UHGV virus genome: UHGV-0128973
DNA length: 64,000 bases
Reading direction: 5' to 3' (one strand)
From: a virus
In this document: in pieces, positions 356 through 59,283 of the stretch
How the letters are laid out: every line of letters starts with the position of its first letter
Numbering within the stretch: the stretch's first letter is position 1
Position numbers and translations under genes: made by a program
The notes under the pieces: model-generated
Databases searched by the model: none
The model's input: the letters and a program-made list of their open reading frames with translations, nothing else
What the model was told of the DNA's origin: nothing

Positions 356-3300
356 CAAACTACCATTGATGCCGCCAGTAACAGTGAGTCCATTACCGAT
401 CGTAACAGCACCATTGGCATTGTTAATGATAAGCGGCCTTAAATTATTATAGGTTCCCAGGCTGTTACCCGAATTGGTCAACATGAAACATGTGTTTGAA
501 CCATCGTTTCGGATAAAGAATCCGTAGTTTCCGTAGGCAATGCGCAGACCATTCGCCGATTTTGAAATGATCTCACCAGTAGCCGTTAAACCGCCGTTGA
601 GATTTCCTCCGGTTATTGGTAATGCGCCGACATCCGTGGCGGTCGGTTTAATGTGCGAACTGTAAATTACATATACAGTTCCATCTGTCAGGCCTGTTGG
701 TTTATCCGCTGTATAAGATGGTGATGTATGAATCGTTACGCTGGCGTTACTGGTATAATCCCACTGAATATTAACACGTGTGGTGTAATTACCTATTTCA
801 ACATAAACATCATAGGTATCACCGGATGTATTCACCCATGCAAAATTAGTAAATCCAACCGATGTCCGTCGCCATAACGCACCAGTAAGACCTTTTGGAT
901 TCCCATTTCCCGCACGAAGAACAAGTTCAGATATACCAGCCTGCATAGGGGAGTTAACATTATATCCAGAACCACCAATCAGGCTTATGTAAACCACGGA
1001 ACTGGACTGTGGCATGGTTACAGTTGCCAGCTTGAACCATCCAGTACCACCACTAAAAGACATTGTTGTTGAGTTGATCGTGCCTATAGACCTTGGAGTT
1101 AGCTCAATGTTTTTAGAACCGTCAAACAACACCCCATTTATAGTTCTAGCGGTTTGTAACTTGGTCGCTGTCGCTGCATTACCGGTTGTGTTCTGATTAC
1201 CCGCAACGTTAACACCAGGTAAATTAATATTCGCAGTACCATCAAAGCTAACTCCGCCGATAGTTCTTGCCGTCTGTAGTTTTGTAGCGGTTGCTGCATT
1301 GCCAGTTGTATTCTGATTGCCAGTGGCATTCACACCAGGAATGGAGTCCCTTGATGTATATACCTGCGCCCACGCTGACCATGCCGCATCAGTGTTATCT
1401 CTTCGGGAGCGAATGAAAACCGGCGCATGTGCACCGCTCGTACCACTCCAGCCAATAAGCAACTCGCCTTCACCAGCAGCACTCGCACCTTTCATGTGCA
1501 ATACGTTGCCATACGTGGTCGGGTAGCTATTGTTGTACGCCTCATACATCTGCAATCCAGTAGAAGCACCTTGTGTTTTATCGGTGAGCGCAGTAACACG
1601 CCCTCTGGACGCAATTGTTGGTATCGAAATGTTCGCAGAACCATCAAACTTAACACCGTTGATTGTGCGTGCTGTTTGCAGTTTTGTTGCAGTTGCGGCA
1701 TTGCCGGTAGTGCTCTGATTACCTGCTGTATTCACGCCCGGCAGGTCGATATTGGCACTACCATCGAATGACACTCCGCCTATTGTGCGTGCTGTTTGCA
1801 GTTTTGTTGCAGTTGCAGCATTGCCGGTAGTGCTCTGATTACCTGCTTTATTCACGCCCGGCAGGTCGATATTGGCACTACCATCGAACGACACTCCGCC
1901 GATTGTGCGTGCTGTTTGCAGTTTTGTGGCGGTGGATGCATTACCTGTCAAAGATCCACTAAGAGCCACGGCACTAAGAGACTTAACACTTACATCCTGA
2001 CCCCATCCGGAAACAACAACCTGACTCCACGCTGCCCAGCTTCCATTAACAACAAAGCGAACGTATATACGTTTTGTGTCGCTGTTAATCAGCGTTTGCA
2101 TGTTCGCATAATCTGATCCCGTAGTCTTACGAATCGACTCTACACGAACCAAAAAGTTACCGCTTACGCCGTCAGGCTTATTGGTAATATTTGCACCACC
2201 TGCGACAGTTTTGCATTGATAGTATTTAACGGATCCAGCTTCTGTATTAGCAATAATCAAGTCGTTTAAATCAATAGTCCGGCCGTCAATGGCTTCCGGC
2301 TCGATGGCTCCTGCTATCCCGGCACTGAATGTGGCAGCGGCTGAAAACGCTGTCTTACCTTTGAAAGTCTGTTGAGAACTCCAGGTATTAGCTGTGCTCA
2401 ACAGGGGGATCTTTTCGCCGCTGGTTCCGATTTCTCTTAAACCAAGGTATTGGATAACAGCCAGTGTGCTTGTTTTAGCCAGGATATCGCGACCGACTGA
2501 CGTTAAATCAGTCTGGGAAACAGTGTCTGTACCGGTAAAGTACGGCAATTTATTTGCGCCTGTCGCAAGACCAGCAAGCGCGGTTAAAGTTGCATCCAGA
2601 GGCTGTTTGCCTGCCAGCGCATTTGTCATTGTTGTCGCAAAGTTCGGGTCATTGCCCAGTGCTGCTGCAAGCTCATTCAGGGTATCAAGAGCTTCAGGTG
2701 ATGAGCCGACCAATGCAGAGATAGCAGCTCTTACATAAGCGGTCGTAGCAATCTGCGTGTTATTCGTACCCTGTGCAGCGGTAGGCGCAGTAGGTATTCC
2801 CGTTAATGCAGGACTTGCTAAAGGAGCTTTAAGAGCCAGAGCATTGTTGATAGTTGTGCTGAAATTCGGGTCGTTATTGATCGCAGCAGCTATTTCTTTA
2901 AGCGTATCCAGAGTGCCAGGTGCACCGTTGATAAGTGCCGTTATAGCTGCCTTAACAAAGGCTGTATTTGCGATCTGCGTGCTGTTTGTACCTTGCGCTG
3001 CCGTCGGCGCGGTTGGCGTTCCTGTCAGACTCGGGCTTTCTATTGGCGCTTTGGTATCAGCCAGCTCTTTTACAGACTTAACGGCTTTAGGGGTAGCCGC
3101 CATTGTTTCGCTGTCGCTGTTAGTTGCGCTACTGAGCTGAACTAATCCCTTTTGTGTTGTGCTTGCATCCTGCGCCGTATACTTGCTTTTAGCCAGATCG
3201 TAGGCTTTTTTAACCGCCAGCGAACTTGCAGCGACATCACTTCTGGTACTGGTTACAGAGTCGGAAATTTCAATGCCTATCGCGAGATCGATGCGGTCGG

Positions 3301-3805
3301 ATACATCTATCATTTCCTTAGTAATAGCAGATACGCCAGCAGGGATATTCACCGTACAAACAAGCAGTTCTCCATCTCCTAACTGATATGAATCGGTATA
3401 GGTTCTGGCAACAAATTCAGCCGCATGAATATGTGACGCGGTATTAACCTGATAAGAATCTTCTCCAAGGAGGTATCTTCCCTTCAGCACAATTGCATAT
3501 TTCTTACCTGCGCTAAGTGCAAGAGAAATATCCTTACGCTGCTGAATAGTTACCTGGTAGAATTCACCAATATTCACTGACGCCGCGCCAGCGGTTTTAT
3601 CACCATCCACTGAGGTGATTAACAGGTTCATCCCACCGCCAGGCTTAGGAAAAAAACCGGCATAAAATCCAGGGTCAACAATTCCCCTGAATTTTCGGTT
3701 TAGCGCGGCTGACAGATATGGTTCGTGGTATTGCACATCAGCCACCAGAGCCAACGACTCGGGTGATGGGTAAGTAACCGATGTGACAACTGTAACGTCA
3801 TTCAT
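1..3805 (-). CDS. Tail fibre protein with tandem phage tail-fibre repeats; start at 3805, 3' end runs off the window
   Basis: Minus-strand ATG at 3803-3805 opens a frame that I read without stops to position 1 (absent from ORF track, presumably because no stop lies in the window). A ~40-aa unit ATATKLQTARTIGGVSFDGSANIDLPGVNxAGNQxTTGNA recurs more than 8 times. Confidence 0.75.
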   Translation of the reverse strand, partial: MNDVTVVTSVTYPSPESLALVADVQYHEPYLSAALNRKFRGIVDPGFYAGFFPKPGGGMNLLITSVDGDKTAGAASVNIGEFYQVTIQQRKDISLALSAGKKYAIVLKGRYLLGEDSYQVNTASHIHAAEFVARTYTDSYQLGDGELLVCTVNIPAGVSAITKEMIDVSDRIDLAIGIEISDSVTSTRSDVAASSLAVKKAYDLAKSKYTAQDASTTQKGLVQLSSATNSDSETMAATPKAVKSVKELADTKAPIESPSLTGTPTAPTAAQGTNSTQIANTAFVKAAITALINGAPGTLDTLKEIAAAINNDPNFSTTINNALALKAPLASPALTGIPTAPTAAQGTNNTQIATTAYVRAAISALVGSSPEALDTLNELAAALGNDPNFATTMTNALAGKQPLDATLTALAGLATGANKLPYFTGTDTVSQTDLTSVGRDILAKTSTLAVIQYLGLREIGTSGEKIPLLSTANTWSSQQTFKGKTAFSAAATFSAGIAGAIEPEAIDGRTIDLNDLIIANTEAGSVKYYQCKTVAGGANITNKPDGVSGNFLVRVESIRKTTGSDYANMQTLINSDTKRIYVRFVVNGSWAAWSQVVVSGWGQDVSVKSLSAVALSGSLTGNASTATKLQTARTIGGVSFDGSANIDLPGVNKAGNQSTTGNAATATKLQTARTIGGVSFDGSANIDLPGVNTAGNQSTTGNAATATKLQTARTINGVKFDGSANISIPTIASRGRVTALTDKTQGASTGLQMYEAYNNSYPTTYGNVLHMKGASAAGEGELLIGWSGTSGAHAPVFIRSRRDNTDAAWSAWAQVYTSRDSIPGVNATGNQNTTGNAATATKLQTARTIGGVSFDGTANINLPGVNVAGNQNTTGNAATATKLQTARTINGVLFDGSKNIELTPRSIGTINSTTMSFSGGTGWFKLATVTMPQSSSVVYISLIGGSGYNVNSPMQAGISELVLRAGNGNPKGLTGALWRRTSVGFTNFAWVNTSGDTYDVYVEIGNYTTRVNIQWDYTSNASVTIHTSPSYTADKPTGLTDGTVYVIYSSHIKPTATDVGALPITGGNLNGGLTATGEIISKSANGLRIAYGNYGFFIRNDGSNTCFMLTNSGNSLGTYNNLRPLIINNANGAVTIGNGLTVTGGINGSLNGNAATATKLQTARTIGGVSFDGSANIDLPGVNKAGNQSTTGNAATATKLQTARTIGGVSFDGSANIDLPGVNKAGNQSTTGNAATATKLQTARTIGGVSFDGSANIDLPGVNKAGNQ
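1640..1930. repeat. Second block of the same ~120-bp tail-fibre repeat (about 2.5 copies); diverged copies also near 1140-1340
   Basis: Same unit as 1-355 seen at 1660-1780 and 1780-1900. Confidence 0.85.
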
Positions 3806-3816
3806 CAAGCATATCC

Positions 3817-4251
3817 TTATGCTGTAGTCGTGTTTATGGCCATAACTGCGGTATATGTTTTGCCCACATACAGCGAGTCTTCCTGGACACAAATAATGGC
3901 GATTGGCTTGTTCTCGTTATCCAGAACAACCAGAGTGTTGAATGGGTAGTTTTTCCCTTTCTGCAACTGGCTTTGATCAAGGTCCATTCGGACAGTAATT
4001 ATCCCGCCTGAGTAGGTTGGGACGAGGTTGATGGTGCAAAATTTACTGGTCAGTTCTGCCAGCTCGAAAGCCTTTGGCAGTTCTCCAATCTCATAAGTGC
4101 CATCTCCTTTCTTAGTAACCAGTGAACTGGTACCGAAAACGGCCTTGCTGATTAAAAATCGAGAGCCTTTGTTAATGGACGATTCAGCGCGCCGCTGATA
4201 GTAATAGTCCAACAACTGACTCTTATAGAGGTTTGTTGAGACGTCAGACAT
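3817..4251 (-). CDS. Hypothetical tail/baseplate-associated protein (144 aa)
   Basis: ORF track; 12 nt upstream of the tail-fibre start on the same strand, inside the structural operon. Confidence 0.5.
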   Translation of the reverse strand: MSDVSTNLYKSQLLDYYYQRRAESSINKGSRFLISKAVFGTSSLVTKKGDGTYEIGELPKAFELAELTSKFCTINLVPTYSGGIITVRMDLDQSQLQKGKNYPFNTLVVLDNENKPIAIICVQEDSLYVGKTYTAVMAINTTTA

Positions 4252-4329
4252 GATTTTCCCTAATCAATGTTGTGAAGCCTCATTGTAAGAGAAGTAACTT
4301 GTCACCCCGCCCTGCGGACGGGGTGATTG

Positions 4330-5169
4330 TCAGGCGTCGCTATCCAGCAACAAATCATCTGCGCGTGTGCGATCAAACGTAGGTGTCGCTTTCACAATAG
4401 TGCCACCAGGCGTTGCGGTGATCGGGGCGCTAATCGACGTAACTCCAGTAAGCGAAGTTGTATCCGAAGTTTCAAACCAGCAGTACGCTTTTTCGGTATC
4501 AGAAATCTCGTTCAAAGTGATCATGTCGGCCTGTTCATTCACAACAACCGACAAATAGAGCGTAAGCCCATCAAACACTATATGCAGTGGCAGTAGAGGC
4601 TTTACGAACTGATTAAACTTTCTGAGAATTTCTTCTGTAATTGCGGACTGATCTATCGTGCCAGTAATACCCATTGTCCGGGCCAGGTCGTTTATGGGAA
4701 TACTGATCATCCCTCTGGAAGTCAGAAACATCTCACCGAATGTGCCGCCGGTAGTTTCCAGTGTGCTTTCTGGTATTAGAACTGTGCCATAGGGATGACG
4801 TTCAAGGTCCACCGGTGCATATATCGGATCCCATAAAACAGAAATACCATTAAATTCGCGGTAAATTGTCTGGTTTATAGGGCGTTCAGTCCCCTTAAAG
4901 TGAATCTCATCAAGCCGCTGTTGTAACAACATCGGAACGGAAGATGAGTTTGAGGTTCTGATAGTAAAGAACTGGCCAAGTTCATTTGTCCTGGTCTCCA
5001 GATCCTCCTTGCTCATGGAAAAAATAGACTTCCGGTTGGTAATTCGCTCCAACCATGGGTCAACAAAGGTGTCCATCATTGACTGAACCAAATCAGCCAA
5101 TGATTTATAGAGCAATGACTTTTGCTTAGCTGATGTAAGCCGATTATTAAACCAGGAACGTTGCATCAC
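4330..5169 (-). CDS. Hypothetical baseplate/tail protein (279 aa)
   Basis: ORF track; its start overlaps the stop of the 477-aa ORF (coupled). Confidence 0.5.
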   Translation of the reverse strand: MMQRSWFNNRLTSAKQKSLLYKSLADLVQSMMDTFVDPWLERITNRKSIFSMSKEDLETRTNELGQFFTIRTSNSSSVPMLLQQRLDEIHFKGTERPINQTIYREFNGISVLWDPIYAPVDLERHPYGTVLIPESTLETTGGTFGEMFLTSRGMISIPINDLARTMGITGTIDQSAITEEILRKFNQFVKPLLPLHIVFDGLTLYLSVVVNEQADMITLNEISDTEKAYCWFETSDTTSLTGVTSISAPITATPGGTIVKATPTFDRTRADDLLLDSDA

Positions 5170-14317: not shown

Positions 14318-14474
14318 GTATTTTTAAGTCGCGAATGCTATCTTTTCGCATCATATTGACCTTTTAATCGTTCAGGCTTATAGTTCCGCCGTCGTAGCAA
14401 ATTCTGCGACCGGGTTTAGCAGCCTGAATGTTAGTGCGGACAACCGCAGATATCCGATATTGCGGTATTTTTGT

Positions 14475-14570
14475 GTCCGTAAAACCGCGTTACGCCCAAA
14501 TTATGGTGGGGCGTGATGGGGAGGCTTCGGCCTGCTGGTTTCACTAACGCCAGTCTGCTAACCCCGTCAC
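14475..14570 (+). ncRNA. c4: c4-like antisense regulatory RNA (approximate bounds)
   Basis: Segments cactaac (14541-14547) and ctgctaa (14556-14562) are complementary to duplicated target elements tttagcagc...gttagtg found upstream (14414-14436) and at the icd ribosome-binding site (14584-14621). Confidence 0.4.
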
Positions 14571-14631
14571 GTCCTGCCACCTGTTTAGCAGCGGGTAGCA
14601 GGTTGTTAAACCTGTTAGTGAGGCCGTAACT

Positions 14632-16878: not shown

Positions 16879-17724
16879 ATGCTGGCTAAAGTCACTTTCC
16901 TGAGCTGTATAACGATGAGCGATTTTACTTTTTCTGGCTATGAATTGGCCTTCTTTGTAACACACTCCGGTCTATCCCGTAGCGCCGGGCATATCCTGTC
17001 GCAATGTGCAAATCTCGCGGCAACAACCAGTGAATACTTCATTCACAAGCCCCACCGCCTGATCGCGGCAGAAACTGGTTATAGCCAATCAACCGTCGTT
17101 CGTGCATTCCGTGAAGCTGTAAACAAAGGAATTCTATCTGTAGAGATTGTTATCGGCGACCACCGTGAACGTCGCGCTAACCTGTACCGGTTTACACCAT
17201 CCTTTTTGGCCTTCGCACAACAAGCCAAAAATGCGCTGATTGAAAGCAAATTAAAAATCTCTTCAGCGGCAACCAAGGTTAAAGCTGTTCTCGCTAAGAC
17301 ATTGGCTTTATTTAATTTTTTATCCACACCCCCATGTCAAAATGATACCCCCTCCCCATGTCAGGATGACGTGGCAATAAAGAATAAGAAGTCACAAGTT
17401 AAAAAAACAAAAAGATCAGTTTCCGGCGGTGCCGGAACGATCAGACTCAAAAAATTGACTTCATGGATCGCTGAGACAAAAGCAAAGGCTGACAATCTGC
17501 GGTTATCCAAAAAACGCGCACAAAAACATGAGTTCAAGCAGAAAGTAGAGGCGGCAGCGCGGAAATATGCTTACCTGAAGAACAAGCGTTCTCCTGATAT
17601 TGGCGGGGTATCAAACTTCGATAATCTGCCGCATTGCATGACGGTAAACGAAGCTCTTAATGCGGTTTTAGCCAAAAATAAAGATAACGAACAATGGGGT
17701 ATACCGGCAGGATTCAGAGGGTGA
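16879..17724 (+). CDS. repL: Lytic replication initiator RepL-like protein (281 aa); alternative start at 16915
   Basis: ORF track; helix-turn-helix-like segment RLIAAETGYSQSTVVRAFREAVNKGIL; follows kilA as in P1-like phages. Confidence 0.6.
   Translation: MLAKVTFLSCITMSDFTFSGYELAFFVTHSGLSRSAGHILSQCANLAATTSEYFIHKPHRLIAAETGYSQSTVVRAFREAVNKGILSVEIVIGDHRERRANLYRFTPSFLAFAQQAKNALIESKLKISSAATKVKAVLAKTLALFNFLSTPPCQNDTPSPCQDDVAIKNKKSQVKKTKRSVSGGAGTIRLKKLTSWIAETKAKADNLRLSKKRAQKHEFKQKVEAAARKYAYLKNKRSPDIGGVSNFDNLPHCMTVNEALNAVLAKNKDNEQWGIPAGFRG
17311..17370 (+). promoter_or_regulatory. Candidate lytic origin (oriL) elements inside repL: DnaA box TTATCCACA plus repeated CCCCATGTCA
   Basis: TTATCCACA at 17318-17326 followed by cccccatgtcaaaatgataccccctccccatgtcagg. 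Confidence 0.35.
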
Positions 17725-17776
17725 TAGATTGCTCTAATCTGGAGTTACCTGGCGTTTTCAGTTTGAGGTCGGAGAT

Positions 17777-18020
17777 GCAATCTGATTTTTTACAGTTAGC
17801 GATCGCTTTTGCAGGATATGTTTGTATTGGCTTCTGTGTATACATGATCAGCCGAAAAATGCTTGTCGATATCGACCGCAAAGAACAAGCAGAGGAGATC
17901 TTAGTATGGATTTTCTTTGGCGCGGTCTGGCCATTAGGGATCATGTTTGCTGCAACATTTCTTCTGATGTGGATATTCACCCTTCCAGGTGATTTCTATA
18001 GAAAAAAAGCCAGACATTGA
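17777..18020 (+). CDS. Small integral membrane protein (about 81 aa from internal ATG; track ORF 17694..18020 overlaps repL)
   Basis: ORF track; two hydrophobic helices (LAIAFAGYVCIGFCVYMI; FFGAVWPLGIMFAATFLLMWIF). Confidence 0.4.
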
Positions 18021-18074
18021 TACAATCGTTGCGGGTGCTTGAGGCTATCTGCTTCAGGTATTACCCGAAAAGCA

Positions 18075-18152
18075 GATAGAAGAAAGCCCCAGATAACATT
18101 ACGCGTCCTGCAAGACGCTTAACATTAATCTGAGGCCATATCTATGCTTAGC
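18075..18152 (-). ncRNA. Sok-like antisense RNA (putative)
   Basis: Minus-strand promoter-like TTGACC-N18-TAATCT (plus coordinates 18159-18189) would drive a transcript antisense to the mok start at 18144. Confidence 0.3.
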
Positions 18153-18350
18153 ATACGTAGATTAGCCTCTTACCGACCAAAAGGTCAAGGAGAAGCAGGC
18201 TATGAAGCAGCAAAAAGCGATGTTAATCGCTCTGATCGTCATCTGTTTAACCGTCATTGTGACGGCACTGGTAACGAGGAAAGACCTCTGCGAGGTACGA
18301 ATCCGAACCAGCCAGACGGAGGTCACTGTCTTCACAGCCTACGAATCTGA
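18144..18350 (+). CDS. Mok-like overlapping reading frame (68 aa)
   Basis: ORF track; starts upstream of hok and overlaps it in another frame, as in hok/mok/sok loci. Confidence 0.4.
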   Translation: MLSIRRLASYRPKGQGEAGYEAAKSDVNRSDRHLFNRHCDGTGNEERPLRGTNPNQPDGGHCLHSLRI

Positions 18351-18357
18351 AAGGTAA
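18202..18357 (+). CDS. hok: Hok/Gef-family type I toxin (51 aa)
   Basis: My translation from ATG 18202 (RBS AGGAGA): MKQQKAMLIALIVICLTVIVTALVTRKDLCEVRIRTSQTEVTVFTAYESER, matching the Hok family pattern. Absent from the ORF track because it is under 60 aa. Confidence 0.8.
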   Translation: MKQQKAMLIALIVICLTVIVTALVTRKDLCEVRIRTSQTEVTVFTAYESER

Positions 18358-18430
18358 GAGACCTGGCGGGGAGAGATCCCCGTCACTCTTCGTGTGTCAG
18401 GTATCCTCAATGCACCCTTTCCTCTCCAAA

Positions 18431-18458
18431 TAAAAAAGCTCCCGAAGGAGCTTTAAAA
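18431..18458. terminator. Bidirectional hairpin terminator between hok and the convergent tail gene
   Basis: Stem aaagctcc / ggagcttt with loop cgaa, flanked by an A-run on one side and a T-run on the minus strand. Confidence 0.5.
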
Positions 18459-18473
18459 TACAAGGGATGACTC

Positions 18474-18983
18474 TTAATCCCACTCAATCCAGTTGTAGAC
18501 GATACGAAGTGACGGGCGCACAGCGGCAGTCACATCTTCGGTACTAAAGTCGATTGCATCACTGTAGATTTTGCAGTCCAACATTTCAATTGTTGTAGCA
18601 GCTTTTGTCACAGCGTTAACCCCGGAAGATTTGGATTCAGGGGTCGCAGCCATCGTGATATCAACATAGTCCTTCGCCGCAATGCGATCTTTAATGAACT
18701 GAAGAATATCGCCTTCGATAGTCTCCACGCACTGGACCTGGATTTCCCCAGAGTTTCGAATTGGACCGTGCTGGTTGAACTTCACACCATTCGGACCATA
18801 GTCCTCCACATCCTCGCGGGTCATTTCAGGAATTTGCGACGTGCGAACCAGTACGCTGATATCTTCATGGCCTGCAAAAGTGAGCTGGAATTCAGAAGAT
18901 ACCAGTCGTTCGCCTTTGGCCGCGTTGGCAGTATAGCGGCCCTTAATAAATTTACGGTTTCCCTTAGTGTTATTGTGCCCCAT
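18474..18983 (-). CDS. Putative tail/baseplate protein (169 aa)
   Basis: ORF track; structural-operon context downstream of sheath. Confidence 0.45.
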   Translation of the reverse strand: MGHNNTKGNRKFIKGRYTANAAKGERLVSSEFQLTFAGHEDISVLVRTSQIPEMTREDVEDYGPNGVKFNQHGPIRNSGEIQVQCVETIEGDILQFIKDRIAAKDYVDITMAATPESKSSGVNAVTKAATTIEMLDCKIYSDAIDFSTEDVTAAVRPSLRIVYNWIEWD

Positions 18984-18994
18984 ATAAAATCCTT

Positions 18995-19576
18995 TTACTG
19001 GAACGCCCGAACAATATCGGAGCTGTTATATATCGAAGAACCGGTCAACTGGAGGTTGACGGTGTTTTTCAGGAAATGCCCATTGCTGTCCCTGGGCGCA
19101 TCGAGATCGAAACTTATGTCCTGGATAGCGACATCAATGATGTTGATCCGGCGACCAATGTTTAGCGTCACACGCTCCGGGATTCGACCACCAATGCTGG
19201 CATCTTTAAGTTCCGGGCTAATCATCGCTGACAATGCGGCGATAGCTCCTGAAACCTCAGTGAATGGGTCAAACAAAGCGATGAAAGTTACTGGCAGCGT
19301 GAAAGTCGGCGGTGTTCCCCCCTCCCAAACCATTAAGCTGTTCCAACGGGCCACCGACGTTGTTTCAGTACCAACCTGCGCAAAACCACTGAAAGCACCA
19401 GCAACAGACCCCATGGACATACCGGTAAACGGCGCTTCCCAATTCTGGGCCATGTTCATTGCTGCCCCCTGGCTGATATATCCGGTAACCTGGTACTGAG
19501 AGTTCGTTAAAGTAACTTTCAGAAATGGCGATACACCGTCAGCCTGGCTGTAAACCCCATAAGGTATAGGTGCCAT
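18995..19576 (-). CDS. Hypothetical structural protein (193 aa)
   Basis: ORF track. Confidence 0.5.
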   Translation of the reverse strand: MAPIPYGVYSQADGVSPFLKVTLTNSQYQVTGYISQGAAMNMAQNWEAPFTGMSMGSVAGAFSGFAQVGTETTSVARWNSLMVWEGGTPPTFTLPVTFIALFDPFTEVSGAIAALSAMISPELKDASIGGRIPERVTLNIGRRINIIDVAIQDISFDLDAPRDSNGHFLKNTVNLQLTGSSIYNSSDIVRAFQ

Positions 19577-35093: not shown

Positions 35094-35168
35094 GATGGTG
35101 TAGCTCAGCGGTAGAGCAGTTGGCTGTTAACCAACTGGTCGGTGGTTCGAATCCACCCACCATCGCCA
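35094..35168 (+). tRNA. tRNA-Asn (anticodon GUU)
   Basis: Hand-folded cloverleaf: acceptor GATGGTG/CACCATC, anticodon loop CTGTTAA, T-loop TTCGAAT, encoded CCA. Confidence 0.85.
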
Positions 35169-35173
35169 ATTTA

Positions 35174-35260
35174 GGGGAGTTAGTCCGTAGGGGTAGCGGG
35201 GTAGACTGTAAATCTACTGTCATTGCGACTCGGGTGGTTCGACTCCATCACTCCCCACCA
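35174..35260 (+). tRNA. Type II tRNA with anticodon GUA (tRNA-Tyr-like, 87 nt)
   Basis: Acceptor GGGGAGT/ACTCCCC, anticodon arm GTAGA-CTGTAAA-TCTAC, long variable arm, T-loop TTCGACT, encoded CCA; the D-arm is imperfect. Confidence 0.6.
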
Positions 35261-35264
35261 AATT

Positions 35265-35340
35265 GCCGGTTTAGCTCAGTTGGTAGAGCAGTCGCTTTGT
35301 AAGCGAATGGTCAGCGGTTCGATCCCGTTAACCGGCACCA
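35265..35340 (+). tRNA. tRNA-Thr (anticodon UGU)
   Basis: Acceptor GCCGGTT/AACCGGC, anticodon loop TTTGTAA, T-loop TTCGATC, encoded CCA. Confidence 0.8.
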
Positions 35341-36772: not shown

Positions 36773-36848
36773 GGCCCTTTAGCTCAGTGGTTAGAGCTGG
36801 CGACTCATAATCGCACGGTCACCAGTTCAAGTCCGGTAGGGGCCACCA
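36773..36848 (+). tRNA. tRNA with CAU anticodon, Ile2 (lysidine-type) or Met
   Basis: Cloverleaf closely resembles enterobacterial tRNA-Ile2 (GGCCCTTTAGCTCAGTGGTTAGAGC...CTCATAA...TTCAAGT...AGGGGCCACCA). Confidence 0.8.
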
Positions 36849-58681: not shown

Positions 58682-58903
58682 ATGCAATCCATTAACTTCC
58701 GTACCGCGCGTGGCAACCTTTCTGAAGTGCTCAACAATGTTGAAGCCGGGGAAGAGGTTGAAATCACCCGCAGAGGCCGTGAGCCAGCAGTAATTGTCAG
58801 CAAGGCTACTTTCGAAGCCTACAAAAAAGCGGCGCTGGATGCTGAATTTGCATCCCTGTTTGACACCCTGGACTCCACCAACAAGGAACTGGTTAACCGA
58901 TAA
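58682..58903 (+). CDS. phd: Phd antitoxin (73 aa)
   Basis: Track ORF 58676..58903; ATG at 58682 with RBS GAGGTG; sequence [39 protein letters not shown] recognised as the Phd antitoxin. Confidence 0.9.
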
Positions 58904-59283
58904 TGAGGCATATATCACCGGAAGAACTTATTGCGCTTCATGATGCGAATATAAGCCGCTACGGCGGCCTGCCGGGAATGTCAGATCCGGGTAGGGCAGA
59001 GGCCATTATCGGGAGAGTTCAGGCCAGAGTTGCCTACGAAGAGATCACCGACCTTTTCGAAGTCTCCGCCACCTACCTGGTGGCTACGGCGAGAGGGCAT
59101 ATATTCAATGATGCCAATAAGCGTACCGCGCTAAACAGTGCGCTGCTATTTCTACGCCGTAACGGGGTGCAGGTATTTGATTCACCTGAACTGGCAGACC
59201 TTACCGTAGGCGCTGCGACTGGCGAGATATCTGTATCTTCTGTCGCCGACACGTTACGTAGATTGTATGGTTCTGCGGAGTAG
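58903..59283 (+). CDS. doc: Doc toxin (Fic-fold kinase, 126 aa)
   Basis: ORF track; TAATG overlap with phd; Fic-like motif [11 protein letters not shown]. Confidence 0.9.

What the first reader, a model, noticed from the sequence alone, without database searches (positions are those of the whole stretch)
18075..18460. Hok/Mok/Sok-like type I toxin-antitoxin locus between repL and the tail genes
A 51-aa ORF (18202-18357) below the ORF-track cut-off translates to a textbook Hok-family toxin. An overlapping upstream frame plays the Mok role. A convergent promoter-like TTGACC-N18-TAATCT on the other strand could drive a Sok-like antisense RNA across the mok start. Together with phd-doc (58682-59283) this gives the element two independent addiction modules.
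Basis: partly seen in the sequence, partly recalled or inferred. Interest (0 to 1): 0.55.

Follow-up and report, generated by a model that had tools for sequence, protein, structure and literature searches.

The report
Complete hok/mok/sok toxin-antitoxin locus
This is an ordinary, already annotated hok/mok/sok killer-gene cassette (small membrane toxin held in check by an antisense RNA) sitting in a swappable cargo slot of a P1-like phage-plasmid, where it most likely helps the element to be kept by its host.

Summary
ORF 18202-18357 is a Hok/Gef toxin (Pfam E=1.3e-20). The leader 18033-18207 matches Rfam RF01794 at 114 bits against a cut-off of 59.

All the regulatory parts of the R1 hok/sok paradigm are present and intact:
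- an extended -10 hok promoter;
- a 5' tac element that pairs with a 3' fbi element, with compensatory changes across homologues;
- a mok start and GAGG Shine-Dalgarno (SD, ribosome-binding) sequence;
- an antisense promoter positionally homologous to the R1 and 933W sok promoters;
- a Sok-like hairpin RNA;
- a 3' protective stem-loop.

By homology the true limits are 18033-18417, with the promoter starting at 17999. They are not 18075-18460: the hairpin at 18435-18454 belongs to the P1 backbone.

One difference from R1, hokC, hokD and hokW is that mok here is out of frame with hok.

The locus and an 81-aa ORF form a ~690-bp cassette. It replaces rlfA-rlfB-pmgF of canonical P1 and is present in about 409 of about 673 P1-like plasmids in PLSDB. 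The exact toxin is named HokD on at least 1000 public contigs. phd-doc is confirmed.

Membership is secure. Addiction function is inferred, because the nearest tested relatives (chromosomal hok loci) did not give post-segregational killing. The locus is already known and of low interest.

The parts
17739..18431 (.). Cargo cassette (ORF81 + hok/mok/sok) that replaces rlfA-rlfB-pmgF of canonical P1
   Evidence: blastn against P1 NC_005856: homology stops at 17738 and resumes at 18432. Against RCS47 it stops at 17761. P1 annotation.
17775..18020 (+). 81-aa hypothetical ORF that travels with hok in the cassette (a longer 108-aa reading from 17694 is possible)
   Evidence: ORF list. RefSeq CDS in pET6.1-IncY. 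phrog_3772, unknown function, E=3e-54. Exact protein on >=1000 contigs. No Pfam, NCBIfam or PADLOC hit.
17999..18026 (+). hok/mok mRNA promoter: TAGAAA-16 nt-TACAAT with an upstream TG (extended -10)
   Evidence: Promoter scan, 9/12 plus TG. The -10 ends 7 nt before position 1 of the Rfam model at 18033.
18033..18420 (+). Full-length hok mRNA (5' end inferred from Rfam model position 1 and family alignment; 3' end inferred a few nt after fbi, as in R1)
   Evidence: Homology to other hok loci spans exactly 18033-18417. Rfam RF01794 covers 18033-18207 at 114 bits. The fold of 18033-18460 has z=-8.5. R1-type tac-to-fbi length is 391 nt against 385 here.
18033..18044 (+). tac (translational activator) element GGGUGCUUGAGG at the mRNA 5' end
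   Evidence: Pairs with 18405-18417 in the MFE fold. Duplex of 12 bp, -21.0 kcal/mol. Nearly invariant in 22 loci.
18082..18152 (-). Sok-like antisense RNA (about 71 nt): 5' single-stranded tail, long hairpin, U-rich 3' end. Complementary to the mok SD and start codon.
   Evidence: Ends mapped from the sokW annotation of 933W through the alignment. The fold of 18152->18080 gives dG -29.9, z=-5.4. Aligned with the R1-type minus strand.
18159..18188 (-). Sok promoter TTGACC-N18-TAATCT
   Evidence: Sequence. Positionally homologous to R1-type TTGCGC-N17-TATCCT. The TTG of the -35 is invariant and -10 positions 2, 5 and 6 are >=90% conserved in 22 loci. Not reported by the generic scan.
18132..18135 (+). 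mok Shine-Dalgarno GAGG, 8 nt before the mok ATG. Sequestered in the hairpin 18086-18137 in predicted folds.
   Evidence: Sequence. Folds. The same GAGG motif is described for R1 in PMC9841398.
18144..18350 (+). mok reading frame, 68 codons, +1 frame relative to hok, stop 7 nt before the end of the hok stop
   Evidence: ORF list. ATG aligned with mok ATG in 22/27 homologues, and frame comparison. phrog_37205, E=5e-21.
18187..18192 (+). hok Shine-Dalgarno AAGGAG (overlaps the Sok -35 on the other strand)
   Evidence: Sequence. The region around the hok start (alignment columns 192-203) pairs with a downstream coding segment, with compensatory changes, in the consensus fold.
18202..18357 (+). 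hok toxin gene, 51 aa
   Evidence: Pfam HOK_GEF E=1.3e-20. PHROG 251 E=4e-31. 94% identical to chromosomal HokD-type proteins. Exact sequence named HokD on >=1000 contigs.
18364..18385 (+). GC-rich 3' stem-loop just after the hok stop; inferred barrier for 3' exonucleolytic trimming that yields the active truncated mRNA
   Evidence: Fold dG -16.6, z=-3.3. Conserved helix in the consensus fold, columns 364-388. The role of the equivalent R1 stem-loop is described in PMC9841398.
18405..18417 (+). fbi (fold-back inhibitory) element CCUCAAUGCACCC
   Evidence: Pairs with tac. Compensatory U-A <-> C-G at alignment columns 5/432 (13 vs 9 sequences).
18435..18454 (-). P1-backbone hairpin terminator of the bplB operon. 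Not part of the hok cassette, although it may also stop hok transcripts.
   Evidence: Terminator scan, minus strand. 18432-18460 is 100% identical to P1 and RCS47 backbone.

Best explanation
Window 17999-18420 is a complete and apparently intact hok/mok/sok type I toxin-antitoxin locus of the hokD/hokW lineage. It is carried as cargo in the repL-bplB gap of a P1-like phage-plasmid.

Inferred mechanism, by homology to R1 hok/sok:
1. A weak extended -10 promoter makes a roughly 388-nt mRNA. Its 5' tac element pairs with the 3' fbi element, which keeps the mRNA closed, untranslatable and stable.
2. Slow 3' trimming back to the GC-rich stem-loop (18364-18385) removes fbi. The 5' end then refolds, and the mok ribosome-binding site and the Sok target become accessible.
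3. While the element is present, an unstable antisense Sok RNA of about 71 nt (18152->18082) pairs across the mok SD and start codon. This blocks mok translation, and therefore the coupled hok translation, and triggers duplex cleavage.
4. If the element is lost or transcription stops, Sok decays first. mok and hok are then translated, and the 51-aa Hok peptide permeabilises the inner membrane and kills the cell.

The most likely benefit to the element is stabilisation of the low-copy plasmid prophage, alongside phd-doc.

Shown here: family membership of the peptide and the leader, conservation of every regulatory element, and covariation in the tac/fbi pairing and the hok-start pairing.

Inferred only: transcript ends, Sok expression, toxicity and post-segregational killing.

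I put about 0.97 on 'it is a complete hok/mok/sok locus' and about 0.55 on 'it functions as an addiction module'.
For: - Toxin: Pfam HOK_GEF E=1.3e-20.
- Leader: Rfam RF01794 at 114 bits against a cut-off of 59, full model length.
- Limits: homology to 40+ hok loci runs exactly from tac to fbi.
- Long-range pairing: the full-length fold closes 5' to 3' with z=-8.5. The tac/fbi duplex is kept at -18 to -27 kcal/mol in 23 of 27 loci with compensatory changes.
- hok start: the hok SD/AUG region pairs with downstream coding sequence, with covariation.
- mok: its ATG and GAGG SD are conserved.
- Sok: the promoter and RNA are colinear with the R1-type locus and with annotated sokW. The Sok hairpin has z=-5.4.
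- 3' stem-loop: z=-3.3.
- Integrity: no IS element, frameshift or stop in hok. The cassette is >=95% identical in about 409 plasmids, and the exact toxin is on >=1000 contigs.
- Mechanism and the dispensability of the Mok product: PMC9841398.
- phd-doc is present in the same element.
Against: - There is no expression or toxicity data.
- The Sok promoter is only 8/12 to consensus and was not called by the scan.
- The NCBIfam Hok models score below their cut-offs (46.5 against 73).
- The MFE fold of the truncated mRNA shows tac refolding locally but does not by itself open the mok SD.
- By sequence the locus belongs with chromosomal and prophage hok loci (87% to hokD/hokW, about 73% to hokC, only patchy identity to R1). 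Intact chromosomal hokA, hokB and hokC were reported not to give PSK or rifampicin-induced killing.
- Hok here has Ser at position 37, where the other 36 homologues translated have Gly in 33, Asp in 2 and Ala in 1. The effect is unknown, although the variant is very widespread.
Confidence: 0.75

Rival explanations
1. The cassette is kept mainly as an anti-phage or anti-competitor (abortive-infection or exclusion) module rather than for plasmid stabilisation. Transcription shut-off by an incoming lytic phage, or displacement by an incompatible element, lets Sok decay, and Hok then kills the cell.
For: - The allele at the same site in canonical P1, RlfA/RlfB, matches the PADLOC candidate defence system PDC-M04A/B (E=1e-95 and 1e-51). 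The slot therefore exchanges defence-type cargo.
- R1 hok/sok on a high-copy plasmid protected against T4 (Pecota & Wood 1996, cited in bioRxiv 10.1101/2025.08.07.668861).
- P1 already has partition, phd-doc and (in P1 itself) res-mod for maintenance.
Against: - Neither Hok nor ORF81 hits PADLOC.
- The preprint found no enrichment of hok next to defence systems.
- T4 exclusion needed high copy number, whereas P1 plasmids are about one copy.
- PDC-M04 is only a candidate system.
Confidence: 0.2
2. The locus is a structurally intact but functionally silent passenger, like the chromosomal hok loci. It is transcribed and regulated but unable to kill at single copy, and it persists by hitch-hiking in a recombination hot spot.
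For: - It belongs to the hokC/hokD/hokW clade.
- Intact chromosomal hokA, hokB and hokC did not mediate PSK.
- The site is clearly recombinogenic, with several alleles and remnants: P1, RCS47, and IS186B in pSvP1.
- Hok carries G37S.
Against: - Every regulatory element, including paired positions, is conserved, and the cassette is the majority allele (about 409 of 673 P1-like plasmids). This is unexpected for a neutral 385-bp sequence encoding a potential poison.
- Decay does occur where selection is relaxed, for example the RCS47 remnant and IS186-disrupted copies.
Confidence: 0.2
3. Chance ORF with no real toxin-antitoxin system.
For: None beyond the small size of the ORF and the weak -10 hexamer.
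Against: Pfam E=1.3e-20, Rfam E=7e-27, and 87-99.8% nucleotide identity to annotated hok loci.
Confidence: 0.01

Closest known systems
hokW/mokW/sokW of Stx2 phage 933W (AF125520), and near-identical loci in lambdoid, Rac-type and Stx prophages
   Same: 86-87% nucleotide identity over the whole tac-to-fbi span. Same order and spacing of tac, Sok hairpin (including the 18-nt extension of the hairpin tip), mok ATG, Sok promoter, hok, 3' stem-loop and fbi. Carried by a temperate phage.
   Different: In hokW, mok is 57 nt upstream and in frame with hok (70 aa, shared stop). Here one extra T (GGTCAAGG against GG-CAAGG) puts mok out of frame (68 aa), changes the Sok -35 from TTGCCT to TTGACC, and lengthens the spacer from 17 to 18 nt. 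The Hok C-terminus also differs. hokW sits in an integrated prophage, this locus on a plasmid prophage.
hokD (relF) and other chromosomal hok loci of E. coli (hokC/gef, hokA, hokB, hokE)
   Same: Hok is 94% identical to the HokD-type protein, and NCBI names the exact protein HokD. About 87% nucleotide identity to chromosomal copies that retain the full leader and about 73% to hokC. Same IS186 target in the 3' hairpin.
   Different: Plasmid-phage location. G37S, A42T and the last three residues differ. mok is out of frame. From my own knowledge, the K-12 hokD copy lacks the mok/sok leader and several K-12 loci are IS-disrupted, whereas this one is complete. Chromosomal loci were reported inactive in PSK.
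hok/sok (parB) of plasmid R1, the mechanistic archetype
   Same: Same architecture element by element: tac GGCGCUUGAGG against GGGUGCUUGAGG; fbi; anti-SD CCCC paired with mok SD GAGG; mok ATG 57-58 nt before hok; Sok promoter at the same place; 3' stem-loop; tac-to-fbi length of 391 against 385 nt (mechanism from PMC9841398).
   Different: Only patchy nucleotide identity. The Hok proteins have diverged (shared motifs TRK..LCE.R.R...EV..F.AYES). R1 mok is in frame. The Sok hairpin here is about 18 nt longer. R1 function (PSK) is experimentally shown, whereas function here is not tested.
phd-doc of P1 (type II addiction module in the same element)
   Same: Both are toxin-antitoxin modules on the same plasmid prophage, and both would act on loss of the element.
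   Different: phd-doc uses a protein antitoxin and a Fic-family kinase toxin acting on translation. hok/sok uses an RNA antitoxin and a membrane toxin. They are unrelated in sequence and mechanism.

Membership tests
[quoted passage not shown] | Toxin of about 50 aa with an N-terminal hydrophobic helix and the conserved Hok/Gef C-terminal motif | tested here: met
   Pfam HOK_GEF covers 42/42 model positions, E=1.3e-20, 73 bits against cut-off 22. PHROG 251 E=4e-31. NCBIfam Hok models hit but below their cut-offs.
[quoted passage not shown] | Structured hok mRNA leader recognised by the curated covariance model | tested here: met
   RF01794 at 18033-18207, + strand, 114.3 bits against gathering score 59, model positions 1-157/157. 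The model matches the hok-mRNA strand, not the strand that would encode Sok.
[quoted passage not shown] | Long-range 5' tac / 3' fbi pairing that closes the full-length mRNA | tested here: met
   MFE fold pairs 18033-18044 with 18405-18417. Duplex of -21 kcal/mol, retained in 23/27 loci. Compensatory U-A/C-G split of 13 to 9.
[quoted passage not shown] | mok leader ORF with its own SD, starting about 57 nt upstream and reading across the hok translation-initiation region | tested here: met
   ATG at 18144 with GAGG 8 nt upstream. The ATG aligns in 22/27 loci. The ORF is 68 codons reading through the hok start. It is out of frame with hok, unlike R1, hokC, hokD and hokW, but only translation up to the hok start is required (PMC9841398).
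[quoted passage not shown] | Antisense Sok gene: a promoter inside the mok-hok junction and a short hairpin RNA complementary to the mok SD and start | tested here: met
   TTGACC-N18-TAATCT is colinear with R1-type TTGCGC-N17-TATCCT. The ends map onto annotated sokW. Hairpin dG -29.9, z=-5.4. This is sequence evidence only, and the promoter is 8/12.
[quoted passage not shown] | Sok RNA is actually transcribed and is less stable than hok mRNA | not testable with these tools
   Needs Northern blot or RACE and rifampicin chase.
[quoted passage not shown] | 3' stem-loop that halts exonucleolytic trimming and defines the active truncated mRNA, followed by refolding that opens the mok SD | tested here: inconclusive
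   The stem-loop is present and conserved. After removal of fbi the 5' end refolds locally, but the MFE fold does not show the mok SD opening.
[quoted passage not shown] | Hok expression kills the cell | not testable with these tools
   Not tested. The G37S substitution is of unknown effect, although the exact protein is widespread.
Plasmid addiction (post-segregational killing) modules | Loss of the replicon leads to death of the segregant and measurable stabilisation | not testable with these tools
   Inferred from R1. The closest tested relatives (chromosomal hokA, hokB, hokC) were negative.
hokD (relF) orthologue, as RefSeq names the protein | Same protein and same chromosomal locus (downstream of relBE in E. 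coli) | tested here: not met
   94% identity, not identity, to chromosomal HokD-type proteins. The locus is on a P1-like plasmid between repL and bplB. The name reflects best protein similarity only.

The most novel reading that the evidence does not exclude
The repL-bplB gap of P1-like phage-plasmids may be a dedicated exchange slot for conflict cargo. The ORF81 + hok/mok/sok cassette is its majority allele (about 60% of sequenced P1-like plasmids). It alternates with the candidate defence pair RlfA/RlfB (PDC-M04) of laboratory P1. In this reading, hok/sok, with a lineage-specific out-of-frame mok and a re-tuned Sok promoter, acts chiefly in phage or plasmid competition (abortive infection or exclusion), possibly together with the co-travelling 81-aa membrane ORF, rather than as a plain stabiliser.
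Probability: 0.2. Interest if true: 0.4.

Novelty: already known. Interest (0 to 1): 0.15.

Why it matters
For annotation, this window should carry hok, mok and sok features, and most public P1-like records annotate only the toxin CDS. It also shows that laboratory P1 is atypical at this site: most natural P1-like plasmids carry hok/sok where P1 has rlfA-rlfB-pmgF. Natural P1-like elements, which are frequent carriers of resistance genes, therefore have at least two toxin-antitoxin modules of different types. That could contribute to their persistence. None of this changes what is understood about hok/sok itself.

Tried and rejected
I relied on positional homology instead.
- Column-wise pair counting of tac/fbi on the first alignment was abandoned, because a bulged base in the Escherichia-type fbi shifts the register relative to Photorhabdus. 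Per-sequence duplex folding and RNAalifold on a cleaner alignment were used instead.
- MFE folding of a 3'-truncated mRNA did not reproduce the published opening of the mok SD. I treat this as inconclusive.
- I first recalled R1 mok as out of frame with hok. The R1-type sequence shows it is in frame, so the recollection was wrong.
- Literature searches for hok in P1-like elements found no dedicated analysis. Venturini et al. 2019 only mention '2 orfs including antibacterial toxin' replacing rlfA-rlfB-pmgF.
- PADLOC, Pfam and NCBIfam gave nothing for ORF81.
- A TadA-type editing hairpin around Tyr47 (CUACGAA) was looked for, but no significant local hairpin is predicted.
- The C1 operator after repL is no longer within 3 mismatches of consensus.
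- The large protein-database searches and the structure-prediction tools were not used, because the answer did not depend on them.

Full report
**What is in the sequence.** The window is a P1-like phage-plasmid.
- repL is at 16879-17724 (+). bplB (18474-18983), pmgG (18995-19576) and the tail genes lie on the minus strand.
- Between them sits the 51-aa ORF at 18202-18357. It matches Pfam HOK_GEF over the whole model (E=1.3e-20, 73 bits, cut-off 22) and PHROG 251 'MokW-like host killing' (E=4e-31).
- Rfam RF01794 ('sok') matches 18033-18207 on the + strand at 114 bits (gathering score 59; E=7e-27 in the 1.5-kb scan, 3e-25 in the whole window).
- That model covers the hok mRNA leader from its first base to the hok AUG. 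It therefore lies on the mRNA strand and contains the Sok-complementary segment, not Sok itself.

**Limits of the locus.**
- blastn of 18033-18460 against 52 fetched loci shows that other hok loci (E. coli, Shigella, E. albertii, Kluyvera, Citrobacter, Photorhabdus, Pantoea, phage 933W) are homologous from query position 1 to 385, that is window 18033-18417.
- Bases 18432-18460 are instead identical to P1 and RCS47 backbone. They contain the hairpin at 18435-18454, which the scan calls a terminator on the minus strand, that is for the bplB operon.
- Upstream, TAGAAA-16 nt-TACAAT with a TG extension (17999-18026) ends 7 nt before 18033 and is the likely hok promoter.

**Regulatory anatomy.**
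- The full-length RNA folds with its 5' GGGUGCUUGAGG (18033-18044) paired to CCUCAAUGCACCC (18405-18417). Overall z is -8.5.
- This tac/fbi duplex (-21 kcal/mol) is retained in 23 of 27 aligned loci. The four exceptions have diverged or IS-disrupted ends.
- It shows compensatory change: GGGU...ACCC in Escherichia-type loci against GGGC...GCCC in Photorhabdus, Pantoea and R1 (U-A in 13 sequences, C-G in 9).
- The consensus fold also pairs the hok start region with a segment near the 3' end of the hok coding sequence, with double changes (C-G 8 / U-A 6; A-U 9 / G-C 7). It keeps a GC-rich stem-loop just after the stop codon. Here that stem-loop is 18364-18385, dG -16.6, z=-3.3.
- The mok ATG at 18144 is preceded by GAGG (18132-18135) and aligns with the mok ATG of 22 of 27 loci.
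- On the minus strand, TTGACC-N18-TAATCT (18188->18159) is colinear with TTGCGC-N17-TATCCT of an R1-type locus.
- The RNA starting about 7 nt downstream (18152) and running to about 18082 corresponds, base for base, to the sokW feature annotated in phage 933W. It folds into a 5' tail, a long hairpin and a U-rich end (dG -29.9, z=-5.4). It is complementary to the mok SD and start codon.
- The promoter hexamers alone are 8/12 and were not called by the scan. The support for the promoter is homology, not the consensus match.

**A difference from the archetype.**
- In the R1-type locus, hokC, hokD, hokW, the Citrobacter locus and most Photorhabdus loci (17 of the 27 aligned), mok starts 57 nt before hok and is in the same frame. 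Mok is then an N-extended Hok with the same stop.
- In the window, the other three P1-type cassette copies in the alignment, one E. coli chromosomal copy and two other enterobacterial loci, the distance is 58 nt. Here mok reads 68 codons in another frame and stops 7 nt before the end of the hok stop codon.
- The extra base is the T of GGTCAAGG. That T also makes the Sok -35 TTGACC instead of TTGCCT and lengthens the spacer to 18 nt.
[quoted passage not shown] This variant is therefore compatible with normal regulation.

**Context.**
- Compared with P1 (NC_005856), homology stops at 17738 and resumes at 18432. P1 has rlfA, rlfB and pmgF in this gap. RCS47 has ISEc46, an unknown gene and a 260-bp remnant of this cassette (window 17905-18164, 92%).
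- The cassette is thus about 690 bp: an 81-aa hypothetical ORF (17775-18020; phrog_3772) plus hok/mok/sok.
- In PLSDB, 673 plasmids carry bplB-pmgG, 409 carry this cassette junction, and 99 carry the P1-type rlfA-rlfB-pmgF. The hok allele is therefore the common one and laboratory P1 is the minority.
- RefSeq annotates the toxin as 'type I toxin-antitoxin system toxin HokD' in these plasmids. One phage record calls it MokW. The exact 51-aa sequence occurs on at least 1000 contigs under that name.
- Venturini et al. [quoted passage not shown]
- phd (58682-58903) and doc (58903-59283) are confirmed.

**How it most likely works.**
- By homology to R1 (mechanism summarised in PMC9841398), the closed full-length mRNA is inert. 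3' trimming to the stem-loop removes fbi, and the 5' end refolds (local refolding is seen). The mok SD and the Sok target then become available.
- Sok blocks mok, and hence hok, translation and causes duplex cleavage. When the element is lost or transcription stops, Sok decays first and Hok kills the cell.
- Shown here are membership, integrity and structural conservation. Transcripts, toxicity and killing are inferred.

**Rival explanations and caveats.**
- By sequence the locus belongs to the chromosomal/prophage clade (94% protein identity to HokD-type proteins; 87% nucleotide identity to hokD/hokW).
- Intact chromosomal hokA, hokB and hokC were reported not to mediate post-segregational killing or rifampicin-induced killing (Pedersen & Gerdes 1999, as cited in bioRxiv 10.1101/2025.08.07.668861). 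The 'second addiction module' claim is therefore plausible but unproven.
- A defence or exclusion role is a real alternative. R1 hok/sok excluded T4 at high copy number, and hok is enriched in prophages. The alternative allele at this very site in P1, RlfA/RlfB, matches the PADLOC candidate defence system PDC-M04.
- A silent-passenger reading is weakened by the conservation of paired positions and by the allele's predominance.

**Verdict.** The locus is a known kind of system, already annotated in public records. Interest is low.

Noticed in passing
window 17739-18431; L004 (P1) 2240-4065; L005 (RCS47) 2262-4615: The repL-bplB gap is an allele-swap site. P1 has rlfA-rlfB-pmgF, RCS47 has ISEc46 plus an unknown 198-aa gene, and this window has ORF81 + hok/sok. 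P1 RlfA and RlfB match the PADLOC candidate defence system PDC-M04A/B (E=1e-95 and 1e-51), although they are annotated in P1 as 'possibly associated with lytic replication'.
   Followed up: partly
window 17775-18020 (+), or 17694-18020: An 81-aa hydrophobic hypothetical ORF (phrog_3772, unknown function) always travels with hok in the P1-type cassette and occurs on >=1000 contigs. It has no Pfam, NCBIfam or PADLOC hit. The hok promoter overlaps its 3' end, and a terminator-like hairpin (17977-17992) lies inside it.
   Followed up: partly
window 17728-17744: Homology to P1 ends at 17738, inside the C1 operator that follows repL in P1 (Op55/Orlf). The window reads ATTGCTCTAAT|CTGGAG, so only the first 11 of 17 operator bases remain, and the site is no longer within 3 mismatches of the consensus. 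Eleven other operator-like sites are found in the window, against 0.3 expected.
   Followed up: partly
L005 (RCS47) 3592-3851, corresponding to window 17905-18164: Phage RCS47 keeps a 260-bp remnant of this cassette at 92% identity: the end of ORF81, the hok promoter, tac, the Sok-coding segment, the mok ATG and the Sok -10. It lacks the Sok -35 and all of hok, so it is a decayed copy.
   Followed up: partly
window 18370-18379: [quoted passage not shown] An E. coli hokC copy in the alignment likewise diverges right after this hairpin. IS186 appears to hit this hairpin repeatedly, cutting fbi away from hok.
   Followed up: partly
window 18339-18345 (hok codon 47, TAC at 18340-18342): The Tyr47 codon lies in CUACGAA, and TACGAA is invariant in all 22 aligned loci. 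A preprint states that hokC, hokD and hokE mRNAs are A-to-I edited at the equivalent Tyr to give Cys, which forms a disulfide important for toxicity in HokB. No significant local hairpin is predicted here.
   Followed up: partly
window 18310-18312 (hok codon 37): Hok here has Ser37 (AGC). Of the other 36 homologues translated, 33 have Gly, 2 Asp and 1 Ala, including two other P1-type copies. The Ser variant is nevertheless on >=1000 contigs.
   Followed up: partly
window 35094-35340 and 36773-36848: Four tRNA genes are present: Asn(GTT), Tyr(GTA), Thr(TGT) and a CAT-anticodon tRNA. From memory, canonical P1 is described with three (Asn, Thr, Ile), so the tRNA-Tyr at 35174-35260 may be an extra. 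This was not checked against P1.
   Followed up: no
window 14378-14430 and 14499-14584: The P1 immunity C4 antisense RNA and its a1/b1 target sites are detected by Rfam (RF01695 at 70 bits, RF03163 at 55.5 bits).
   Followed up: no
window 18033-18207: The Rfam family called 'sok antitoxin' (RF01794) matches the hok-mRNA strand over 175 nt, from the mRNA 5' end to the hok AUG. The antisense strand scores only 21.7 bits elsewhere. Annotating the Rfam hit as the Sok gene would therefore give the wrong strand and length.
   Followed up: yes
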